Part shown: in pieces, positions 21,945 through 55,700 of the stretch | Position numbering within the stretch: the stretch's first letter is position 1 | Layout of the letters: every line of letters begins with the position of its first letter | Origin: Candidatus Woesearchaeota archaeon | Lineage (GTDB): Archaea; Nanobdellota; Nanobdellia; Woesearchaeales; 21-14-0-10-32-9 | NCBI GenBank assembly: GCA_021735165.1 | Contig: JAIPHP010000002.1 | Coordinates: 5,491-69,490 of the forward strand | Direction: 5' to 3' | Length of the DNA: 64,000 nucleotides | Notes under the pieces: generated by a model | Databases searched by the model: none | Told to the model about the DNA's origin: nothing | The model's input: only the letters and a program-made list of their open reading frames with translations | Program-made: the position numbers and the translations under genes

Positions 21945-22355
21945 TTGGAGGGAATGTGTATGAAGAAGTTTTTCAGTCTTAAATCGTTCAAAAAGACAAG
22001 ATATGATGAAGAAGATCAGGGCGAAACAGAAGATGAGTATGTTGAATTGAATACAGATATGGATCATGGAGCATCTTCGCGTGTTATGGTAAGGCCTTTT
22101 GTTCTTGATGATTTCACTGATGTTAAGAATGTTATCGAAGTCTTAAGAGAAGGATACACTATTTGTTTGTTAAACATAGGTCCTTTGCGGGAGAAAGATA
22201 TGGTTGAGCTAAAGAGAGCTATAAATAAATTAAAAAAGACAATCGAAGCTATTGGCGGAGACATTGCTGGTTTTGGCGAGGATTATATTGTTGTTGTGCC
22301 AAGTTTTGCAGGAATCTATAGATCTTCTGGCGAAGCTAAGGACTTTGATGACTAA
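21945..22355 (+). CDS. sepF: SepF-like cell division protein (FtsZ anchor)
   Basis: C-terminal DUF552 pattern VMVRPFVLDDFTDVKNVIEVLREGYTICLLNI...IEAIGGDIAGFGEDYIVVVP matches the SepF core. Confidence 0.7.
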   Translation: MEGMCMKKFFSLKSFKKTRYDEEDQGETEDEYVELNTDMDHGASSRVMVRPFVLDDFTDVKNVIEVLREGYTICLLNIGPLREKDMVELKRAINKLKKTIEAIGGDIAGFGEDYIVVVPSFAGIYRSSGEAKDFDD

Positions 22356-22999: not shown

Positions 23000-23550
23000 A
23001 GATTTTAGTTGTTCTTGGTGGTTCTTTAAAGAGTGATGGTTCTTTAGCTTTTAAAGTGAAAGCTAGAGCGGATCTAGCATTTAAAAAATTTTCAAAAGAA
23101 AATTATGATTTTATTATTGCTTCAGGAAATCATAGCATATCTTTGAATTTCACACCTAAATTAACTGAAGCTAATGCTATTAAAAAATATTTGGTTTTAA
23201 ACGGACTAACTGAAGATAAAATTATTTTAGAAGAGCAATCTAAAGATACTATAGGTAACGCGTATTATACAAAGTTATTGATTATGAATTTGAAGCCTAT
23301 TCAGGAAATTTGTGTCATTACATCAAAATCTCATATTAAAAGATCTGAATATATTTTTAAGAAAGTTTTTGGTCCTTCACATAATCTAAGATTTGTTGGG
23401 TCTGAAGAGAACATTAGTGATGTTGAAAATAATTATAAGAAAGAAACATCAATTCTGAAGGTAACAAAAAACTGGTTAGATCCTATAAGGGATGGAGACC
23501 ATAAAGCCATATATTTGTTAATTAAAAAATTATATTCTGATAAATCATAA
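22996..23550 (+). CDS. DUF218 (YdcF/SanA-like) domain protein
   Basis: ILVVLGGS...IIASGN...IILEEQSKDTIGNAYYTK...ICVITSKSHIKR pattern. Confidence 0.5.
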   Translation: MKILVVLGGSLKSDGSLAFKVKARADLAFKKFSKENYDFIIASGNHSISLNFTPKLTEANAIKKYLVLNGLTEDKIILEEQSKDTIGNAYYTKLLIMNLKPIQEICVITSKSHIKRSEYIFKKVFGPSHNLRFVGSEENISDVENNYKKETSILKVTKNWLDPIRDGDHKAIYLLIKKLYSDKS

Positions 23551-23640
23551 ATATTTTATTAATAATTGCCCTATCAATCATTCCAATCTATTTATAAAAA
23601 AACAAAAATATTTTAATAATAGATTATAAAATATGGACTT

Positions 23641-24291
23641 ATGCTTATTCGCAAATATAATTCTAAAGACAGAAAAGCTGTTGAAAATATCCAGTTTGAA
23701 ACTTTTTTTCTTGGTAAATCTTTAAAAGGTTTTATTGATAATAAAAAATATGTTGCTGAAGAAATAAAATATTATTTGGAAGAAGAACCTGAGAATTGTT
23801 TTGTTGCTGAAGAAAATAGAAAAGTTGTTGGTTATTTGCTTGGATGTCTAAATGTTAGGCACGATGATAGAAAAGAATTATTATCAAAATTATTCAAAAC
23901 AATAGCAAGATCTTTGTGGATGTCTAAGAAAGACAGAAAATTCTGGTGCAATTGGAATATTAAAGTAATAATTAGTGCAATATTTGGCAAATCTGATGAA
24001 ATAAATATTAAATATCCTAAAAATTTAGGAAGTCTTCATATCAATATTCTTCCTGAAGCAAGAGGTAAAGGAACAGGTTCAAAGCTTTTGAAAGAGTTTT
24101 TTAAACACGCGAAGAAAAATGGTTGTAAAAGAATAAGTGCGGGTACGTGGAAAACAAAACTTAATGACAACAAGACTTTCTGGCTAAAAAATGGTTTTAA
24201 GAAATATTCTGAAATAGAAAATACTTTTTTTTGGAAATATCTCCTTCCAAATGAAAAGATTGGTTTAACTGTTTATGTAAAAGAACTTTAA
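23641..24291 (+). CDS. GNAT-family N-acetyltransferase
   Basis: Acetyl-CoA-binding motif LHINILPEARGKGTGSKLL. Confidence 0.7.
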   Translation: MLIRKYNSKDRKAVENIQFETFFLGKSLKGFIDNKKYVAEEIKYYLEEEPENCFVAEENRKVVGYLLGCLNVRHDDRKELLSKLFKTIARSLWMSKKDRKFWCNWNIKVIISAIFGKSDEINIKYPKNLGSLHINILPEARGKGTGSKLLKEFFKHAKKNGCKRISAGTWKTKLNDNKTFWLKNGFKKYSEIENTFFWKYLLPNEKIGLTVYVKEL

Positions 24292-25361
24292 TTCACTTCA
24301 AATTTATCTATAACTATTTTTCCTTTTTTTATTCTTATTTCTACTTGATCTTCACTTCCAAGTCTTGCAGCCTTACTTACTACTTCTGGCAACAATATTC
24401 TTGTTCCTCTATAATCTAACCCTGTTATTATGCTTCCTTCGTTATCTATTTCAGTCATTACGTTTTGTTTATTTTTTCCATCTTTTGTTTCTAAAAATTC
24501 AACTGTTTTTTTATACAAATATTTTGCTATTAAATCTGCTATGTCTACTTTTGTTGCTTTTGTTATACCTTGTAATCCAGGACTGATATTTGTTTCTATT
24601 ACTAATGGACCACGTATGCTTTCTAGTATGTCCACCCCACATATTTCTGCACCCGTTGCTTTTGCTGCCCTTACAGCTATTTCTTTTGTTTGCTCATCAA
24701 GAGCTATTTGTTCAACCATCCCGCCTTGGTGCGTGTTTGATCTTTTTTCATTTGTGTTCCCTTTTCTTGTCATTGATGCTACTACTTTTTCTCCTATTAC
24801 AAATGCGCGTATATCTGTTGACTCAGTTTCTATATATTCTTGGACTATAAGTGACTGATTTAAACTACTTACAGCGTCAAGTATTGTTACTGCTGATGCG
24901 TATGAGTCTGCAAACATAACTCCTTTTCCTTGAGTTCCTTGGGGAAATTTCATTATTATAGGATAATTCATAGTTCCAAGTAGCTCTTTAGCAGCTTCTA
25001 TAGTTGATGAAATATAGGTTCTTGGCATGGGTATGCTGTGTTGTTGTAGCATTAATTGTGTGAGTAATTTATCATGAGCAATTGTGAAAGCTTTTGGATC
25101 TATAGGCATATAACATTTTCCTTCTAATATAGTTGTTAGGCTTCTTAGTATTTGTGCGTATCTAAAGCTTCCTTTTGGCATTATACAATCATATTCATCA
25201 AGAGGATTTCCTTTGTATAATATTTCTGCTTTTTTTCCAGATATATTTATTTCTATATCTTTTAATTGTATTTCTTCTACTTCGTCAAAGTACTTTTTCA
25301 TCGCTTCGTACGTCCATTTACTGCTTACGCTTCCTAAACTTATTATTGCTGCTTTAACCAT
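24288..25361 (-). CDS. RimK-like ATP-grasp peptide ligase (alpha-L-glutamate ligase family) with a C-terminal extension
   Basis: ATP-grasp fold of RimK/LysX type (IIMKFPQGTQGKGV, IVQEYIE...DIRAFVIG, CGVDIL) plus a ~70-aa C-terminal extension. Its start overlaps the upstream protease gene by 19 nt. Confidence 0.8.
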   Translation of the reverse strand: MVKAAIISLGSVSSKWTYEAMKKYFDEVEEIQLKDIEINISGKKAEILYKGNPLDEYDCIMPKGSFRYAQILRSLTTILEGKCYMPIDPKAFTIAHDKLLTQLMLQQHSIPMPRTYISSTIEAAKELLGTMNYPIIMKFPQGTQGKGVMFADSYASAVTILDAVSSLNQSLIVQEYIETESTDIRAFVIGEKVVASMTRKGNTNEKRSNTHQGGMVEQIALDEQTKEIAVRAAKATGAEICGVDILESIRGPLVIETNISPGLQGITKATKVDIADLIAKYLYKKTVEFLETKDGKNKQNVMTEIDNEGSIITGLDYRGTRILLPEVVSKAARLGSEDQVEIRIKKGKIVIDKFEVN

Positions 25362-25885
25362 TCTATCACTTTCTTTTGGTATTTATGATCCGGATCTTTC
25401 GTCGGATCTTTTGTTACATCTATTAAAAAATCATGTTTTAGTATGTTTCTTCCTATCAGAACAGGATATTTCATGTGTGTTCTGTCTGCCACAGTAAATT
25501 CTTCTCTTAGTGTTTTGTTTTTTATTATTAATTCCACTTCGATTACAGGTCTTACTGTTGTTCCATTCGCATTTTTTACTTTTCTTGCTTTTATTACAGG
25601 ACCTAATTGTAGTTCTTTTACAAATTCTGTGTGTATTGCAGATCTAGTTGCCCCAGTGTCTATTCTTGCAGGAAGGATTAGTTGTTTTCTTTTGTCTTTA
25701 CCTTTTATTGTTATAAATTCTGCCATCCCCAATATTGTTTTACTCTCTTCCTCCATGTTTTTCAAGAATAAATGCTTCTTTTTAAAGCTTATTATGATTT
25801 GTTTATAAATGTTGCTTGCAGGCTTTACATAATTCTCTTTTTTTGTACTAGGGAAAATCACACAATAAAAGAAATTATCTTTCAA
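25343..25885 (-). CDS. Retropepsin-like aspartic peptidase (pfam05618/RimB-like, annotated in databases as putative ATP-dependent zinc protease)
   Basis: Aspartic-protease signature ARIDTGATRSAI (D-T-G-A) in a ~180-aa protein encoded immediately upstream of, and overlapping, the RimK-like gene. Confidence 0.6.
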   Translation of the reverse strand: MKDNFFYCVIFPSTKKENYVKPASNIYKQIIISFKKKHLFLKNMEEESKTILGMAEFITIKGKDKRKQLILPARIDTGATRSAIHTEFVKELQLGPVIKARKVKNANGTTVRPVIEVELIIKNKTLREEFTVADRTHMKYPVLIGRNILKHDFLIDVTKDPTKDPDHKYQKKVIEWLKQQ

Positions 25886-25948
25886 AGTTCCAAGTTTTAA
25901 ATCTGAATATTTTCTTTTAGGGAAAACTTAGTTGTTATTTGAGTTCTT

Positions 25949-26293
25949 TTACAGCAACTTAAGGTGTCCTGTAACTTTATCTATTTTTTCTTCGATATCA
26001 GGACCTATTCCCAAAACTGTTGTTGTTCCAGGTGTTAAAAATGTTCTTCCTGCATCATTTATTAGTCCGCAAGCCAGTCCTTCGTTTTTTGCTAAAACTA
26101 ATAGTTCTCTTAATTCTTTTTCAGAATCTACTTTTAGCACTGTTTTTTTCATGCCTTGTTTTGACCATGTTTCTACTAATTTTTTATCTGAATGCATCAA
26201 TGCCTGAACGCTGCCATGAGCAACTTGCGCAGCTAATTTTCCTTTTGGCATTTTAAGATCATTTCTTGCTATTATTACTTGTTTTAGTTCCAT
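25949..26293 (-). CDS. pth2: Peptidyl-tRNA hydrolase, archaeal/eukaryal Pth2 type
   Basis: 114-aa PTH2 pattern KQVIIARNDLKM..GKLAAQVAHGS...LINDAGRT. Confidence 0.85.
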   Translation of the reverse strand: MELKQVIIARNDLKMPKGKLAAQVAHGSVQALMHSDKKLVETWSKQGMKKTVLKVDSEKELRELLVLAKNEGLACGLINDAGRTFLTPGTTTVLGIGPDIEEKIDKVTGHLKLL

Positions 26294-26341
26294 AATCTTA
26301 GAAATGTGGGTGCTATTTTTATATTCTTTTATTTTTAATGC

Positions 26342-26719
26342 TTAAAATTTTGTATTGTGTGTTATTATGTCTGTGGTTTCATTTCCAATTTTTATGCTAT
26401 ACTTATTTCCAAATCCTGAGACTTTTAAGGTATCTTTATATTTCAAGCTTTCTTTTATGTTTTTCCAATCACTCATTTTTATGTATGCATATTTGTCTTT
26501 GGTTGTTTTAAAAACTGCGTATTCAAATGAATTCTTATCTATAATTCTTCCTATCGTAAAAACAAGAATGCCAGGCACATTTCCTGGAGCAGGAACATTT
26601 TTATAAGTTTCTTCTGTTTTCAAAAGAAGTTCTGTATTGTTTTTTTCTCCTAATTTACAGCCTCCCACGAGTAGAGAGGTTACAATAGTTCCTATAGATG
26701 CATATGTTTTAAAACTCAT
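26342..26719 (-). CDS. Putative lipoprotein, hypothetical
   Basis: Signal peptide ending in the lipobox-like LLVGGC. Confidence 0.4.
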   Translation of the reverse strand: MSFKTYASIGTIVTSLLVGGCKLGEKNNTELLLKTEETYKNVPAPGNVPGILVFTIGRIIDKNSFEYAVFKTTKDKYAYIKMSDWKNIKESLKYKDTLKVSGFGNKYSIKIGNETTDIITHNTKF

Positions 26720-26760
26720 AGTTTTAGAGAATCGTTGTTTATTTTTATATTTTAATGAAA

Positions 26761-28083
26761 TTAATTCATGCTTTCACTTCCTTTTTTGTATTTGATTAGT
26801 TTTTTATTTTTTGTTTTGTTTATGATTTTATCTGTAAGTTTCCAGCTTTCGTTTAGTTCTGTTGCTCTTATAAATAGTCTTTTTTCTCCTTTTATACATT
26901 CATCAATTATTGTTTCGTATGCTGTCGGCGTATTTCCTTTGAATTCACATGTAGGGCAAAAAAGCATTTGCACTGGTTTTAAGTCCGGAGTTTCTCCGGG
27001 CATTTTGGCATTTATTGTTAATGATATATTTTGCCTTGGTTGAATATCGATTCTTATCTTGTTGGGTGCAGTATTAAAGTCGCAGTATATTGTGCAGGGT
27101 TCTTTTTTGAATTCTAGTTCTATGTATGCTTCATCACTATTCATTTTTTTGCCTGTTTCTAATATTATTTGTGAGTTTTCCCATCTTTTACTTTTTGATT
27201 TAAAAAATATTTTTGAATACGTTTCTGTTTTTGTTTTTTTTCCTAATTTTTTTTCGACTTCTTCTTCATATCCTTCATATTGACCAAGGATGGCTTTTTC
27301 AAATTCGAGTTTTTTTATTGCTCTTGTTTTTTGGTATCTTATTTCGTCTGCATAAGTATTTTTTGGCGGGTCCATCAAGATTAATGAAGCTGTTTGTAAT
27401 AAATGATTTTGTATCATGTCTTTTATTGCTCCAGAACCATCATAGTATTCTAATCTCTGTTCAACGCCGTTAATTTCTTTTGAGACTATTTTTATTTTGT
27501 CTATGAATTTTGAATTCCATATGTTTTCAAAAAAAGGGTTTGATAATCTTAAGCGCAGTATGTTGTCTATTGTTTGTTTTGCCACGTAATGATCTACTTT
27601 GTATATTTGTTCTCTTGTGAAATATTTTTTCATTAGTTTGTTTAATTTTTCCCATGAATTATAATCTGAGCCAAAAGGTTTTTCTATCATCAGTTTTATA
27701 TTTTGATATTTACAGTCTTTTACTATATTGAATATTTTATCAAATAAATTATATGATGTAGCTAAATAATATATTGTCTGATCTGCTTTTTCTTTATGCA
27801 CAAATTCGTAGAATTTTTTCATTGAATTTTTATCAGATACATCCCCTTTGAAGTATTGTATTTTAAGGTTTTTGTTTTTTTTTGGTATGCTCAAATATTT
27901 TTCGTATTGTTGGTTGTCCAGATTTGTTCTTCCTACGCCTATGAGGTTTATTTTGTATTTTTTGTTTGTTGCTAAATTATTTAGTGCAGGAGCTAATTTT
28001 CTTTTTGTTAAATCTCCTGTTCCTCCAAATATTACTATGTTTATCATTTTTTCCACATATTCATTATTACTTGGATATCTCAT
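26761..28083 (-). CDS. zwf: Glucose-6-phosphate 1-dehydrogenase (bacterial Zwf type)
   Basis: IFGGTGDLTKRKLAPAL, IEKPFG, the substrate motif KVDHYVAKQTIDNIL and DMIQNHLLQ. Confidence 0.85.
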   Translation of the reverse strand: MRYPSNNEYVEKMINIVIFGGTGDLTKRKLAPALNNLATNKKYKINLIGVGRTNLDNQQYEKYLSIPKKNKNLKIQYFKGDVSDKNSMKKFYEFVHKEKADQTIYYLATSYNLFDKIFNIVKDCKYQNIKLMIEKPFGSDYNSWEKLNKLMKKYFTREQIYKVDHYVAKQTIDNILRLRLSNPFFENIWNSKFIDKIKIVSKEINGVEQRLEYYDGSGAIKDMIQNHLLQTASLILMDPPKNTYADEIRYQKTRAIKKLEFEKAILGQYEGYEEEVEKKLGKKTKTETYSKIFFKSKSKRWENSQIILETGKKMNSDEAYIELEFKKEPCTIYCDFNTAPNKIRIDIQPRQNISLTINAKMPGETPDLKPVQMLFCPTCEFKGNTPTAYETIIDECIKGEKRLFIRATELNESWKLTDKIINKTKNKKLIKYKKGSESMN

Positions 28084-28766
28084 TTTTGATCTGTTACGAT
28101 TATTGTGTTTTCTATTTCATCTAGTATTTGTTGCGGTATTGTTTTTTCTGTATTGTTAAGATATGATTTTAATGCTTGTTTTTTCTCTTTTCCTAAAAAA
28201 AGTACGAATGCTGTTTTTGTCATTGCTAATGCTCCAGGAACAATACTTATTCTTTTTTTGGGAAGCTTAGGAGAATCTTCAAAGTATTCGTATGCTTGTT
28301 TGTCAGTATATTCTTTTTCAGGAAATATTCCTGCTACGTGCCCATCTTCTCCACTGCTCAGAATTGCTATGTCTATTCTTCCTGCGAATTCTTCGAATTT
28401 TTTCGAGTAATCAAAAGCTGCTTTTTCTCCTGATAATTCCGTTTTTATTCTGTGAACATGTTTATTTTGTATCAAATTCTTGTTTAATAGCGGTTCTAGC
28501 AGTTTTTCTTTTATTGTTTTATAATTGCTTTCATTTGAAGTTATAGGTGCGTATCTTTCGTCTAATATGAAAAAATGACATTTCTGCCATGATTTAATAT
28601 TTTTTTTAGTTAATTCTTCGTACAGTTTTCCTGTGCTTGTTCCGCCAACCAAGCCTATGAATATTTTTTCTTGTTGATTGGCAAGAAATTCTATTTCATC
28701 TGTTATGAATGAAGCAGCGTGTTTTATGAGTTCTTCTCTTTTAGGATATTTTAGTAGTTTCATCAT
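28080..28766 (-). CDS. pgl: 6-phosphogluconolactonase
   Basis: GLVGGTSTGKLYE and SSGEDGHVAGIFP motifs. Confidence 0.75.
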   Translation of the reverse strand: MMKLLKYPKREELIKHAASFITDEIEFLANQQEKIFIGLVGGTSTGKLYEELTKKNIKSWQKCHFFILDERYAPITSNESNYKTIKEKLLEPLLNKNLIQNKHVHRIKTELSGEKAAFDYSKKFEEFAGRIDIAILSSGEDGHVAGIFPEKEYTDKQAYEYFEDSPKLPKKRISIVPGALAMTKTAFVLFLGKEKKQALKSYLNNTEKTIPQQILDEIENTIIVTDQK

Positions 28767-29680
28767 CTGTTCTCTTTCTTTTTTACTCCATGGCCCCCAA
28801 ATTCATCTCTTAGTACAGACACTATTTTTGTTGCAAAATTTTTTTTAGTTTCTGATTTTTCTCTTATTTCCAAACTTTTTTTTATTATGGGTATTTCCAC
28901 ATTATTTTTTTCTGCTTCTTCAACAGTCCATAGACCTTCTCCACTGTGAGGGATAAATCCATCCACGTCTTTCATTCCCGGATGATGTATGAATGCATCT
29001 CTAGCCCATTCCATTAAAGCCCCTCGTATTATGCTTCCGTTATTCCACAAGTCAGATAGTTTTTCCATGTCAAGTTCTTTGAATGGTCCTTCACTTATGA
29101 CGTGAAATCCTTCTCCTATAGCTTGCATCATTCCGTATTCTATTCCATTATGAATCATTTTTACATAATGCCCTGCACCGCTTGGACCAAAATAACCATA
29201 TCCCTTTGGTACGCACATAGCTTTTATTATTGGCTCTATTTTATTAAAGTCAATTTCAGCACCTCCGCACATCATACAATACCCTGTTTTTGCTGCTGCT
29301 AGACCTCCTGATACTCCCACATCAAAATATCGTATTCTTTTTTCTTGAAGTTCTTTTGAACGCCTTATTGTTTCTGTATACTTAGAATTTCCCCCATCTA
29401 TTAGTAAGTCTCCTTCTTCTAAATAAGGCACTATTTTGCTTTTTATTTCATCTACTGTTTTGTGAGGTGTCATCAACCAAATAATTCTTGGTTTTTCTAA
29501 ATTATTTACTAGTTCTTGATAACTCTTTGAAGGTATAGCTCCTTTTTCTTTACTTATTTTTTCTACTTTTTCAGGACTTCTATTATATACAACGACTTCA
29601 TGACCTTTTTCTAGAAGTTTTTCAACCATATTATAACCCATTTTCCCCAAACCCACGAATCCTATTTTCATTTCTTCCAC
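28763..29680 (-). CDS. gnd: 6-phosphogluconate dehydrogenase (decarboxylating), short YqeC-like form
   Basis: Rossmann motif IGFVGLGKMGYNM and a catalytic region GGNSKYTETIRR...GVSGG consistent with 6PGDH. Confidence 0.8.
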   Translation of the reverse strand: MEEMKIGFVGLGKMGYNMVEKLLEKGHEVVVYNRSPEKVEKISKEKGAIPSKSYQELVNNLEKPRIIWLMTPHKTVDEIKSKIVPYLEEGDLLIDGGNSKYTETIRRSKELQEKRIRYFDVGVSGGLAAAKTGYCMMCGGAEIDFNKIEPIIKAMCVPKGYGYFGPSGAGHYVKMIHNGIEYGMMQAIGEGFHVISEGPFKELDMEKLSDLWNNGSIIRGALMEWARDAFIHHPGMKDVDGFIPHSGEGLWTVEEAEKNNVEIPIIKKSLEIREKSETKKNFATKIVSVLRDEFGGHGVKKKENR

Positions 29681-54212: not shown

Positions 54213-55700
54213 TTACCAACTTTTTGCCACATAAACAATATGTTTTGCAGGTTTTCCAGTAATTATACATTTTTTGCCCTTAGCAGATTCTCTTTTGTTT
54301 ACATCCCAAGGAATGCCACAAACATATGCTCCCTGAGTCTCAACTTTAAGAATCTCTGCGGCTTCCTCACCTTCTTTATCAATAGAAAAAAATGGAACTT
54401 TAACAAAACCTCTGTGTTTTTTCATCAATTCTTTTAATTCATCTAAAGAATCTGTTTCTTTTGTGTTGTCTGTAAAATATTTCTTAGCCCTAACACCAAT
54501 ATCTTTATCCACTAACTCAATTTCCTTATTTAATGCGTCAAACAAATGTTCATATTTAACAAATATTTTTTCCGCACTAGTCCTTCTTTTCATAACTACC
54601 TGCGACTTTTCAACATCATTAGGACCTATTTCTATCCTTATAGGCACTCCTTTCATTTCCCACTGATTAAATTTCCAACCACTAGTATTATCTGATTCAT
54701 CTATATACACCCTGTATTTGTCTTCAAGCATTTTTTTAATTTCATAACATTTGTCCATAACTTTTTTATTTTTTGCTTCGTCACTAAAAATAATAGGCAC
54801 AACAACAATTTGGTGAGGAGAAACATCAAACGGCAAAACTAAACCTTGATCATCTCCATGAACCCCAATAATCGCAGCCATTATCCTCCATATGCCAGGT
54901 CCAAAACAAGATTGATGAGCATACTTCTTTTTTTCATCCTTATCAACAAACATTATATCATATGCCTTTGCAAAATTAATTCCCAAATCATGAGTTGAAG
55001 AAAGCTGATTTCTTCTTCCATCAGGCATCAAAGTATCCGCAACATATGTAGCATCTGCTCCTAAAAATGCATCCCATTTAGGTCTTTTAAAAAATATGTG
55101 AGGAATTTTTAATTTCCCACCTATAACGCGCTCCATTATCAAACCATCACTTTCAATTTGTTTCATAACCCCTTCATGTGAAGAATAAACATTATGAGAT
55201 TCCATAAACATAAATTCTCTCCCTCTAAGAAAGGGCCTCGTTGTTTTTTCATTTCTAAAAGTTGTTATTCTTGATTGGTATCTCTTCATAGGTAATTGAG
55301 AATACGTTCTCAACCACAAAGAATACATAGGATAAATTTGGGTTTCTCCAGTAGGCCTTAACGCAACAGGCTCTTCTAATTTTTTTGTTCCAGCTTCAGT
55401 CACCCAGAAAACATCGGGTGCAAATCCTGCGTGTTCTGCTTCTCGTTCTAAATTTTCCTTTTTAATCACCGTAGGAAATAAATAAGGTTCATGACCGTCT
55501 TTTTCAAATTCTTCCTCTAAATATTCATATATTTTTCTTAATATTTTAAATCCCCAAGGCATATGCACTATAAACCCTTGCACACCGTAACGTACATCTG
55601 CCAATTCTGCACCTTCAGGACCCACTATTTGCGTGAACCACTCACTAAAATTTTCAGTTTTCTTTTCAGTTATTCCTATCTGTTTTTTTTGTTTTATCAT
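54213..55700 (-). CDS. proS: Prolyl-tRNA synthetase, archaeal/eukaryal type
   Basis: Class II motifs, RPTGETQIYPMY, and the C-terminal zinc-binding extension ending ...YVAKSW. Confidence 0.9.
   Translation of the reverse strand: MIKQKKQIGITEKKTENFSEWFTQIVGPEGAELADVRYGVQGFIVHMPWGFKILRKIYEYLEEEFEKDGHEPYLFPTVIKKENLEREAEHAGFAPDVFWVTEAGTKKLEEPVALRPTGETQIYPMYSLWLRTYSQLPMKRYQSRITTFRNEKTTRPFLRGREFMFMESHNVYSSHEGVMKQIESDGLIMERVIGGKLKIPHIFFKRPKWDAFLGADATYVADTLMPDGRRNQLSSTHDLGINFAKAYDIMFVDKDEKKKYAHQSCFGPGIWRIMAAIIGVHGDDQGLVLPFDVSPHQIVVVPIIFSDEAKNKKVMDKCYEIKKMLEDKYRVYIDESDNTSGWKFNQWEMKGVPIRIEIGPNDVEKSQVVMKRRTSAEKIFVKYEHLFDALNKEIELVDKDIGVRAKKYFTDNTKETDSLDELKELMKKHRGFVKVPFFSIDKEGEEAAEILKVETQGAYVCGIPWDVNKRESAKGKKCIITGKPAKHIVYVAKSW

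What the first reader, a model, noticed from the sequence alone, without database searches (positions are those of the whole stretch)
24288..25885. RimK-like ATP-grasp ligase translationally coupled to a retropepsin-like (RimB/pfam05618-type) peptidase in an archaeon
An aspartic-peptidase-like ORF (ARIDTGATRSAI) overlaps, by 19 nt, the start of a RimK-family ATP-grasp ligase that carries an extra ~70-aa C-terminal extension. In bacteria, RimK and RimB together poly-glutamylate and trim ribosomal protein bS6. Archaea have no bS6 homolog, so the target here would be different. The pair is therefore probably a peptide-tagging or trimming system (a glutamate-tail writer and eraser) for an unknown protein. 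Pth2 is the next gene downstream. The established archaeal RimK relatives (LysX/ArgX, MptN, CofF) are not normally paired with this peptidase.
Basis: partly seen in the sequence, partly recalled or inferred. Interest (0 to 1): 0.6.

Follow-up and report, generated by a model that had tools for sequence, protein, structure and literature searches.

The report
Archaeal RimK–RimB-like glutamate ligase/peptidase pair
A tiny-genome (DPANN/Woesearchaeota) archaeon carries a universally conserved, overlapping gene pair homologous to the bacterial enzymes that add and trim glutamate tails on ribosomal protein bS6, but archaea lack bS6 and the ligase has gained an extra AbrB-like domain, so its target is unknown.

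Summary
On the minus strand, a 137-aa retropepsin-like peptidase (25756..25343; invariant DTGA and LIGRN motifs; AF2 pLDDT 91.5) overlaps by 19 nt a 357-aa RimK-family ATP-grasp ligase (25361..24288).

The window comes from a Candidatus Woesearchaeota MAG. In all 81 loci examined (80 species-representative genomes plus the window) the peptidase lies directly upstream on the same strand. In 37 of them the overlap is exactly 4 nt. One metagenomic protein fuses both enzymes.

The ligase passes the rimK_fam cutoff and is nearer bacterial RimK (154-160 bits) than LysX/ArgX (51-87 bits). It reaches no equivalog cutoff for RimK, LysX, MptN or CofF.

The ~70-aa C-terminal extension is an AbrB/SpoVT/MazE-type swapped-hairpin domain, which bacterial RimK lacks.

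In most relatives the pair sits about 45 nt downstream of lysyl-tRNA synthetase (class I or class II, interchangeably), usually after Pth2. No LysW-like carrier is nearby.

Best reading: a cytoplasmic RimB/RimK-type module that builds and trims poly-alpha-glutamate and is co-expressed with translation genes. The acceptor is unknown. SepF, which ends in Glu or Asp in 84% of relatives, is a weak lead.

This is a new variant of a known kind. It is annotated in databases, but no study of it turned up in the literature library searched.

The parts
25343..25756 (-). Retropepsin-like aspartic peptidase. 137 aa, ATG at 25756, TAA stop at 25343-25345. Belongs to PF05618 (the RimB/RloA family). No signal peptide.
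   Evidence: PF05618 at 2.6e-18 on the 137-aa form. NCBIfam RloA3 65.6 bits and RimB 38.2 bits, both below their equivalog cutoffs. NCBI models it as 137 aa (P0121). AF2 pLDDT 91.5. Foldseek top hits are 2pma, RloA 9g58, RloA2 9g59, then HIV/SIV proteases and Ddi1. Start codon read.
25649..25660 (-). Catalytic D33-T34-G35-A36 motif of the peptidase.
   Evidence: Invariant in 53 aligned homologues, together with G65, R69, F87, R92, L100 and G102 of the LIGRN motif.
25343..25361 (-). 19-nt overlap between the peptidase 3' end and the ligase ATG. A GTGAT Shine-Dalgarno-like motif lies 3 nt before the ATG.
   Evidence: Sequence read. In relatives the overlap is exactly 4 nt in 37 of 81 loci. The longer overlap here comes from a clade-specific C-terminal helix of the peptidase.
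24507..25361 (-). RimK-family ATP-grasp ligase core, residues 1-285.
   Evidence: PF08443 6e-49 and TIGR00768 203 bits against a cutoff of 143. PDB RimK chains 7qys, 7qyr, 5zct and 4iwx score 154-160 bits. Invariant K138, D244, E256, N258, R185, R207, N209 and H211.
24288..24506 (-). C-terminal extension of the ligase (residues 286-357 plus stop). It consists of a linker helix and then an AbrB/SpoVT/MazE-like swapped-hairpin domain (core residues ~308-357, 24291-24440).
25949..26293 (-). Peptidyl-tRNA hydrolase Pth2. It is the next gene upstream on the same strand, with a 192-nt gap to the peptidase ATG. This is context rather than a demonstrated component.
   Evidence: PF01981 4e-39 and PRK04322 146 bits against a cutoff of 126. 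Pth2 lies within 3 genes upstream in 24 of 66 loci that have enough upstream sequence.
55697..57202 (-). Class II lysyl-tRNA synthetase. In most relatives LysRS sits directly upstream of the pair. In this genome it lies 30 kb away, next to ProRS.
   Evidence: TIGR00499 593 bits. LysRS is within 3 genes upstream in 38 of 66 loci. The median distance from the LysRS stop to the first peptidase residue aligned by the profile is 45 nt in 34 loci.
21960..22355 (+). SepF, 131 aa, ending ...AKDFDD. It is a speculative candidate acceptor only.
   Evidence: PF04472 37 bits against a cutoff of 27. Among 120 Woesearchaeota-type homologues the last residue is E in 64% and D in 20%, and acidity rises toward the C-terminus. 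It was the only neighbour family with a conserved di-acidic end.

Best explanation
This is a cytoplasmic two-enzyme module homologous to bacterial RimB-RimK.

The ligase uses ATP to add alpha-linked L-glutamate residues one after another to a terminal carboxylate. That carboxylate is either the C-terminus of a protein ending in Glu or Asp, or free glutamate, which would give poly-alpha-glutamate.

The strongly basic peptidase is presumed to act as a homodimer. It cuts polyglutamate stretches, so it limits tail length, and it may also modulate the ligase as RimB does.

The two proteins are made together from overlapping reading frames. In most relatives they lie on the same strand about 45 nt downstream of lysyl-tRNA synthetase, often after Pth2, so they are probably expressed with the translation apparatus.

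The added C-terminal AbrB-like domain normally pairs with a second copy to form one barrel. It most likely serves as an oligomerisation or docking module for the peptidase dimer or for the acceptor.

Shown here: homology, intact catalytic and Mg/ATP residues, both folds, obligatory gene pairing, and a natural fusion.

Inferred: glutamate specificity, cleavage specificity, co-transcription, and the role of the AbrB-like domain.

Unknown: the acceptor. It cannot be bS6, which is a bacteria-specific ribosomal protein (established knowledge).
For: Ligase:
- rimK_fam scores 203 bits against a cutoff of 143, and it is the best model for all 28 family members scanned.
- Solved RimK chains score 154-160 bits, against 82-87 for ArgX/LysX and 51 for T. 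kodakarensis LysX.
- Residues aligned with the poly-Glu contacts of P. aeruginosa RimK (R64, R189, N262; PMC10092738) are invariant K63, R185 and N258. The RSNxHxGG motif and the Mg ligands D244, E256 and N258 are invariant.

Peptidase:
- Invariant DTGA and LIGRN motifs.
- Confident retropepsin fold, closest to Lpg0085, RloA and RloA2.
- No N-terminal hydrophobic segment, so it is cytoplasmic like RimB.
- Mean net charge of +10.4, which fits a polyanionic substrate. RimB and RloA both cut polyglutamate (PMC11957791, PMC12239564).

Coupling:
- The order peptidase then ligase, same strand, is found in 81 of 81 loci, with a 4-nt overlap in 37. This is the same order as rimB-rimK and as the bacterial RimBK hybrid.
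- P0285 is a 496-aa fusion of peptidase, RimK core and AbrB-like tail.

Distribution and context:
- 416 species-representative genomes encode a relative.
- The neighbourhood is translation-related: Pth2, LysRS, L31e and S19e.
Against: - No biochemical data exist for any member of this archaeal family.
- The ligase misses the RimK equivalog cutoff (174 against 331). MptN and LysX models score only slightly lower, at 150 bits each, so amino-acid and acceptor specificity could differ.
- RimK residue R8, a poly-Glu contact, appears to be Leu/Gln/Met here. This was aligned by eye and the N-terminus is not covered by the HMMER alignment.
- The peptidase scores better against secreted RloA3 (65.6 bits) than against RimB (38.2 bits), and is far below both cutoffs.
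- No acceptor was identified.
- Neighbourhood conservation could be inherited synteny rather than functional linkage.
- The fusion protein rests on a single metagenomic contig. It could be an indel artefact that joined two overlapping ORFs.
Confidence: 0.6

Rival explanations
1. The module has no protein acceptor. It only makes and turns over free poly-alpha-L-glutamate, for example as a counter-ion, osmolyte or glutamate store, with the peptidase stimulating synthesis and trimming the product.
For: E. coli and Pseudomonas RimK synthesise free poly-alpha-glutamate, and RimB stimulates this (PMC11957791). No acceptor gene is consistently linked to the pair. Many of the MAGs come from soda-lake brines, sediments and marine samples (record titles).
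Against: The tight linkage is to translation genes rather than to transport or osmotic genes. The added AbrB-like domain suggests a macromolecular partner. Reduced DPANN genomes seldom keep storage-polymer pathways (general knowledge, not tested here).
Confidence: 0.2
2. The ligase is a LysX/ArgX-type enzyme that loads an amino acid onto a LysW-like carrier protein for lysine or arginine biosynthesis. Its linkage to lysyl-tRNA synthetase would then reflect lysine metabolism.
For: The LysX_arch model scores 150 bits. LysRS is the most frequent upstream neighbour.
Against: The score is below the LysX cutoff of 275.6. Solved LysX/ArgX chains score about half as high as RimK chains. No small zinc-ribbon ORF with an acidic C-terminus lies within 6 kb in 81 loci. 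No other aminoadipate-pathway gene appears among the conserved neighbours. The obligatory partner is a peptidase, which that pathway does not use.
Confidence: 0.03
3. The ligase glutamylates a small-molecule cofactor, as MptN does for tetrahydromethanopterin and CofF for F420, and the peptidase acts on something unrelated.
For: MptN_Meth scores 150 bits. These are the characterised archaeal alpha-L-glutamate ligases (cited in PMC11957791).
Against: The scores are far below the cutoffs (150 against 350; CofF 84 against 300). Strict operonic pairing in 81 of 81 loci, plus a fusion with a polyglutamate-type peptidase, argues for a shared polymer substrate. No methanopterin or F420 biosynthesis genes appear among the neighbours.
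Confidence: 0.05
4. The module is a diverged ATP-grasp/peptidase pair with a different chemistry. The ligase might add another amino acid or modify a side chain. The AbrB-like domain might bind DNA and make the ligase a moonlighting regulator.
Against: Most glutamate and poly-Glu contact positions and the RSNxHxGG motif are invariant. The AbrB-like domain is roughly neutral, with a mean net charge of +0.8. Its profile finds almost only these ligases among 1.84 billion representatives.
Confidence: 0.12

Closest known systems
RimB-RimK of Pseudomonas (rimABK operon)
   Same: Both have a PF05618 retropepsin-like cytoplasmic peptidase encoded directly upstream of a RimK-family ATP-grasp alpha-L-glutamate ligase. 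The catalytic DTG motif, the ATP-grasp Mg/ATP residues and most poly-Glu contact residues are conserved (PMC11957791, PMC10092738).
   Different: The host is an archaeon, which has no bS6/RpsF. There is no RimA or c-di-GMP component. The ligase carries an extra AbrB-like domain of about 50 aa on a linker helix. Both proteins fall below the RimK and RimB equivalog cutoffs. The usual context is LysRS and Pth2.
RimBK hybrid protein (Desulfotalea psychrophila DP2392 type; Flavobacteriales and Rhodobacterales)
   Same: One relative, P0285 (496 aa), has the same N-terminal peptidase and C-terminal RimK architecture (PMC11957791).
   Different: The fusion was seen only once here and also carries the AbrB-like tail. 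In all 81 genomic loci examined the two are separate, overlapping genes.
RloA-RloB-RloC of Pseudomonas aeruginosa
   Same: The peptidase's best NCBIfam and structural matches are RloA-type proteins. That system also pairs such a peptidase with an ATP-grasp protein (PMC12239564).
   Different: RloA proteins have signal peptides and are secreted, whereas this peptidase has none. No RloB-like transglutaminase membrane protein is adjacent. The ligase is RimK-type and scores only 17.7 bits on TIGR02291 (rimK_rel_E_lig). Whether that model corresponds to RloC was not checked.
LysX/ArgX with the LysW carrier; MptN and CofF (the characterised archaeal RimK relatives)
   Same: They belong to the same ATP-grasp subfamily, TIGR00768.
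   Different: All their equivalog cutoffs are missed. No LysW is nearby. None of the descriptions seen here mentions a paired PF05618 peptidase, but this was not surveyed.
AbrB/SpoVT/MazE swapped-hairpin (looped-hinge helix) domains
   Different: Here the domain is fused to an enzyme rather than to a regulator or antitoxin. It is near-neutral in charge. It is too diverged to pass any Pfam threshold on its own.

Membership tests
RimK family alpha-L-glutamate ligases (TIGR00768 / PF08443) | Sequence match above the curated subfamily cutoff | tested here: met
   TIGR00768 scores 203.3 bits against a cutoff of 143.4, and PF08443 scores 166.7 bits against 21. All 28 homologues scanned hit rimK_fam best.
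RimK family alpha-L-glutamate ligases (TIGR00768 / PF08443) | Intact ATP-grasp catalytic and Mg-binding residues and the glutamate-site motif | tested here: met
   K138, D244, E256, N258, R185, R207, N209, H211 and G213 are invariant in 28 sequences. They align with the RimK residues R189 and N262 and with the FRSNLHRGG motif.
RimK proper (ribosomal protein bS6--L-glutamate ligase, NF007764) | Equivalog-level sequence score | tested here: not met
   173.6 bits against a cutoff of 331.
RimK proper (ribosomal protein bS6--L-glutamate ligase, NF007764) | The acceptor bS6, ending in Glu-Glu, is present in the organism | not testable with these tools
   bS6 is a bacteria-specific ribosomal protein (established knowledge). 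Only 64 kb of this genome is available, and it contains no candidate.
RimK proper (ribosomal protein bS6--L-glutamate ligase, NF007764) | About 300 aa with no extra C-terminal domain | tested here: not met
   The protein is 357 aa. Residues 286-357 extend past the end of solved RimK chains and form an AbrB-like domain.
RimB-type retropepsin-like peptidase (PF05618; NF052261) | Retropepsin fold with a catalytic DTG motif | tested here: met
   The AF2 model has pLDDT 91.5. Foldseek hits are 2pma, 9g58, 9g59, HIV-1 protease and Ddi1. D33-T34-G35-A36 is invariant.
RimB-type retropepsin-like peptidase (PF05618; NF052261) | Cytoplasmic (no signal peptide) and encoded next to rimK | tested here: met
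   The N-terminus is short and hydrophilic. The gene is adjacent and upstream on the same strand in 81 of 81 loci.
RimB-type retropepsin-like peptidase (PF05618; NF052261) | Equivalog-level sequence score | tested here: not met
   RimB scores 38.2 bits against a cutoff of 200, and RloA3 scores 65.6 against 210. The Pfam family threshold is met (65.3 bits against 27).
RimB-type retropepsin-like peptidase (PF05618; NF052261) | Endopeptidase specific for polyglutamate | not testable with these tools
   The only indirect support is a strongly basic protein, with a mean net charge of +10.4.
LysX/ArgX amino-group-carrier-protein ligases (TIGR02144) | Equivalog score and an adjacent LysW-type carrier | tested here: not met
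   150.2 bits against a cutoff of 275.6. PDB LysX/ArgX chains score 51-87 bits against 154-160 for RimK. No small Zn-ribbon ORF with an acidic end lies within 6 kb in 81 loci.
MptN (NF040720) / CofF (TIGR04443) cofactor glutamate ligases | Equivalog score | tested here: not met
   MptN scores 150.2 bits against a cutoff of 350, and CofF scores 83.9 against 300. The same ranking holds in 28 members.
AbrB/SpoVT/MazE swapped-hairpin domain (PF04014 clan) | Beta-beta-alpha-beta-beta hairpin fold similar to AbrB-N | tested here: met
AbrB/SpoVT/MazE swapped-hairpin domain (PF04014 clan) | Pfam gathering threshold | tested here: not met
   The window sequence gives no hit. Only 5 of 45 members hit PF04014, with a best E-value of 8.5e-4.
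AbrB/SpoVT/MazE swapped-hairpin domain (PF04014 clan) | Homodimerisation into one barrel, and DNA binding | not testable with these tools
   Only a monomer model was possible. The domain's net charge is about +0.8.

The most novel reading that the evidence does not exclude
Woesearchaeota and related DPANN archaea run a reversible C-terminal poly-alpha-glutamylation system on a protein that is not bS6. It would be the first such protein-tail writer/eraser in Archaea. The AbrB-like domain would act as the acceptor- or peptidase-docking module, and expression would be tied to lysyl-tRNA synthetase and Pth2. The best available candidate is the cell-division protein SepF, whose short tail after the fold ends in Glu or Asp in 84% of 120 relatives. 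A ribosomal protein with an acidic end, such as the extended L31e, is the alternative.
Probability: 0.25. Interest if true: 0.75.

Novelty: new variant of a known kind. Interest (0 to 1): 0.55.

Why it matters
RimK/RimB is understood only as a bacterial system that tunes the ribosome through bS6. Here the same enzyme pair is strictly conserved across hundreds of archaeal species that have tiny genomes and no bS6. It also carries a new domain and is consistently linked to lysyl-tRNA synthetase.

This implies a second, unknown use of enzymatic alpha-polyglutamylation. That use is either a new protein target in archaeal translation or cell division, or an essential role for free poly-alpha-glutamate.

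It provides a compact, testable two-protein system for finding that target. It also extends retropepsin-like peptidases into Archaea as conserved housekeeping-linked enzymes.

Tried and rejected
- Pfam on the isolated C-terminal extension found nothing at E up to 10. Only profile and structure methods identified the domain.
- Rfam on 23500-26800 gave only chance-level hits to eukaryotic lncRNA families, so no known cis-regulatory RNA was detected.
- The sigma-70 promoter/terminator scanner was not used, because the host is an archaeon. A TTTAAAAA about 30 nt upstream of the peptidase ATG was noted. It is not meaningful in a 30% GC genome.
- The LysW search found nothing. The small CxxC ORFs near the pair do not end in an acidic residue.
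- No second RimK paralogue is present in the window or in the 80 genome loci.
- The termini of LysRS, Pth2, the wHTH protein and ZPR1 are not acidic, so they were rejected as acceptors.
- The PDB search with SepF was uninformative about C-terminal tails.
Curated HMM scores and PDB sequence scores were used instead.
- Literature searches for RimK with DPANN, and for DUF785, PF05618 or COG4067, found no paper on the archaeal pair. The two key bacterial papers do not mention archaea.
Full report
**What is there**

Two overlapping ORFs lie on the minus strand: 25885..25343 and 25361..24288. The downstream ORF (357 aa) matches the RimK ATP-grasp domain PF08443 (6e-49). It also matches NCBIfam TIGR00768 'RimK family alpha-L-glutamate ligase' at 203 bits, above the curated cutoff of 143.

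The upstream ORF matches PF05618 (7e-18) and retroviral-type aspartyl protease families. It contains ARIDTGATRSAI. Its real start is the ATG at 25756, giving 137 aa, not the TTG at 25885:
- The NCBI protein model is 137 aa and 100% identical (P0121).
- Homologues are 107-143 aa.
- The first 43 residues of the long ORF have no counterpart in homologues.

The peptidase stop lies 19 nt inside the ligase ORF, and a GTGAT motif sits just before the ligase ATG.

The window comes from a Candidatus Woesearchaeota MAG (P0001, 100% identity). Archaeal Pth2, Elp3, ZPR1 and SepF genes surround the pair.

**Is the pairing more than chance?**

A scan of one genome per species (GTDB representatives) found 416 genomes encoding a relative of the ligase, and the best 80 loci were retrieved. 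All appear to be Woesearchaeota/Nanoarchaeota-type MAGs by gene content and similarity. Several are titled 'uncultured Methanosarcinales'.

A profile of the peptidase detects a homologue in every one of the 80 loci and in the window. In all 81 it lies immediately upstream of the ligase on the same strand. In 37 the overlap is exactly 4 nt, the ATGA type. The 19-nt overlap in the window reflects a clade-specific C-terminal helix on the peptidase.

An exhaustive profile search found one 496-aa protein (P0285) in which the peptidase, the RimK core and the C-terminal tail are fused in that order. This mirrors the bacterial RimBK hybrid (PMC11957791). It rests on a single contig and could be an indel artefact.

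**The ligase**

Scores against curated NCBIfam models:

| Model | Bits | Cutoff |
|---|---|---|
| rimK_fam (TIGR00768) | 203 | 143 |
| RimK equivalog (NF007764) | 174 | 331 |
| LysX (TIGR02144) | 150 | 276 |
| MptN (NF040720) | 150 | 350 |
| CofF (TIGR04443) | 84 | 300 |

The same order holds for 28 diverse family members.

Against solved structures, bacterial RimK chains score 154-160 bits (E about 1e-45). ArgX and LysX score 82-87 bits, and T. kodakarensis LysX scores 51 bits. The enzyme is therefore a separate branch of the RimK family, nearer to RimK than to the characterised archaeal relatives.

The Mg/ATP residues are invariant, as are the positions that align with the poly-glutamate contacts seen in P. 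aeruginosa RimK. R64, R189 and N262 correspond here to K63, R185 and N258, and the RSNxHxGG motif is also invariant. One contact, R8, appears not to be conserved. That alignment was made by eye.

**The C-terminal extension**

Residues 286-357 are conserved across the family, with the motif LDFRGxRILLPE...D.VEI...G.I.IKKF. They lie beyond the end of bacterial RimK.

Pfam finds nothing in the window sequence. The other evidence all points one way:
- A profile of the region aligns with the AbrB N-domain at 84% hhalign probability.
- A few members weakly hit MazE_antitoxin/SpoVT-AbrB, SymE, PrlF and MraZ.
- An AF2 model (pLDDT 77) shows a linker helix followed by a beta-beta-alpha-beta-beta unit.

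Among 1.84 billion representative proteins the profile finds only 86 hits. Nearly all are these ligases or fragments of them. The weakest hits are genuine PF04014 proteins.

The extension is therefore a diverged, lineage-specific AbrB-type swapped-hairpin domain. It is near-neutral in charge, which does not favour a classical DNA-binding role. Such domains normally pair with a second copy.

RimK is a tetramer, and the proposed RimB-binding region lies near the C-terminal outer face (PMC10092738). On that basis I infer a docking or oligomerisation role.

**The peptidase**

D33-T34-G35-A36 and the LIGRN motif are invariant in 53 homologues. The AF2 model is confident (pLDDT 91.5). It is closest to Legionella Lpg0085 (DUF785), Pseudomonas RloA and RloA2, then to HIV/SIV proteases and Ddi1.

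The protein has no signal peptide, unlike RloA and like RimB. It is strongly basic, with a mean net charge of +10.4. That fits a polyanionic substrate, and RimB and RloA both cleave polyglutamate. It does not reach the RimB or RloA equivalog cutoffs.

**Genomic context**

Clustering the neighbours across 81 loci shows a recurrent order of Pth2, lysyl-tRNA synthetase, peptidase, ligase.
- LysRS lies within three genes upstream in 38 of the 66 loci with enough upstream sequence.
- Where LysRS is directly upstream on the same strand (34 loci), the median distance from its stop to the first peptidase residue aligned by the profile is 45 nt. This suggests co-transcription.
- The LysRS is class II in 25 loci and class I in 20. 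The two classes alternate about 20 times along a neighbour-joining tree of the ligase. I cannot explain this.
- In the window's clade LysRS has left this position. A class II LysRS sits at 55697-57202 next to ProRS.

Downstream neighbours on the opposite strand include a small winged-helix protein, L31e and S19e, ZPR1, SepF and Elp3.

No LysW-like carrier is nearby. No second RimK paralogue is nearby in these loci. No Rfam element was found.

**Candidate acceptors**

Among the neighbour families, only SepF has a conserved di-acidic C-terminus. In 120 Woesearchaeota-type SepF homologues the last residue is Glu in 64% and Asp in 20%. Acid frequency rises steeply toward the terminus of an otherwise variable tail of about 10 residues that follows the fold. 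This resembles the bS6 terminus that RimK extends.

The lead is weak for three reasons:
- One such family among 27 neighbour families with at least five members could be chance.
- SepF is near the pair in only 11 loci.
- No comparison with archaea that lack the pair was possible.

L31e in some relatives has a long Lys/Glu-rich extension that often ends in Glu.

**Comparison with what is known, and novelty**

The module works like, and is homologous to, RimB-RimK. It fails membership of RimK proper on three counts: the equivalog score, the architecture, and the absence of bS6 in archaea. It also fails membership of RimB, RloA, LysX, ArgX, MptN and CofF at equivalog level.

The papers on RimB and RloA surveyed bacteria only. 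Full-text searches found nothing on the archaeal pair. Databases already label the genes generically ('RimK family alpha-L-glutamate ligase', 'RimK/LysX family protein').

I rate this a new variant of a known kind and moderately interesting. Its conservation in reduced genomes, its new domain and its LysRS linkage point to an unknown role for alpha-polyglutamylation in Archaea.

Noticed in passing
Loci L008, L012, L013, L016, L020, L023 and others, directly upstream of the pair; window 55697-57202: The gene directly upstream of the pair is lysyl-tRNA synthetase. It is class II in 25 loci and class I in 20. The two unrelated classes alternate about 20 times along the ligase tree, which looks like repeated non-orthologous replacement at one position or differential loss. 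In the window, LysRS (class II) has moved next to ProRS and overlaps it by 4 nt.
   Followed up: partly
window 26761-29680 (minus strand): A complete oxidative pentose-phosphate trio lies in one overlapping operon, in my experience an unusual gene set for an archaeon (not checked here). It consists of glucose-6-phosphate dehydrogenase (343 bits, just under the cutoff), 6-phosphogluconolactonase and a short-type 6-phosphogluconate dehydrogenase.
   Followed up: partly
window 21960-22355; proteins P0327-P0446: SepF of Woesearchaeota-type archaea carries a short, variable tail that ends in Glu (64%) or Asp (20%). Acidity rises toward the very last residue.
   Followed up: partly
L022 7264-7929 and equivalents in L024, L032, L029 and L034: Ribosomal protein L31e is about 220 aa in these relatives, whereas its NCBIfam model is 83 positions. 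The extra length is a long Lys/Glu/Ser-rich C-terminal extension that often ends in Glu.
   Followed up: no
L081 3713-6491: One metagenomic contig encodes a second, short RimK paralogue (270 aa), then Pth2, then a 496-aa fusion of peptidase, RimK and AbrB-like tail.
   Followed up: partly
Loci L001, L007, L009, L021, L029-L031, L035 and others (record titles): Many MAGs titled 'uncultured Methanosarcinales archaeon' carry this Woesearchaeota-type operon and neighbourhood at 53-69% identity to the window protein. The titles look like placeholder or mistaken taxonomy.
   Followed up: no
window 23641-24291 (plus strand): A GNAT acetyltransferase converges on the ligase, and the ends of the two genes overlap by 4 nt (24288-24291). 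It is not conserved next to the pair in other loci.
   Followed up: partly
window 26342-26719 (minus strand): A 125-aa ORF lies between Pth2 and the pentose-phosphate genes. It has a lipoprotein-like N-terminus (…SLLVGGCKLG…) and no Pfam or NCBIfam match.
   Followed up: no
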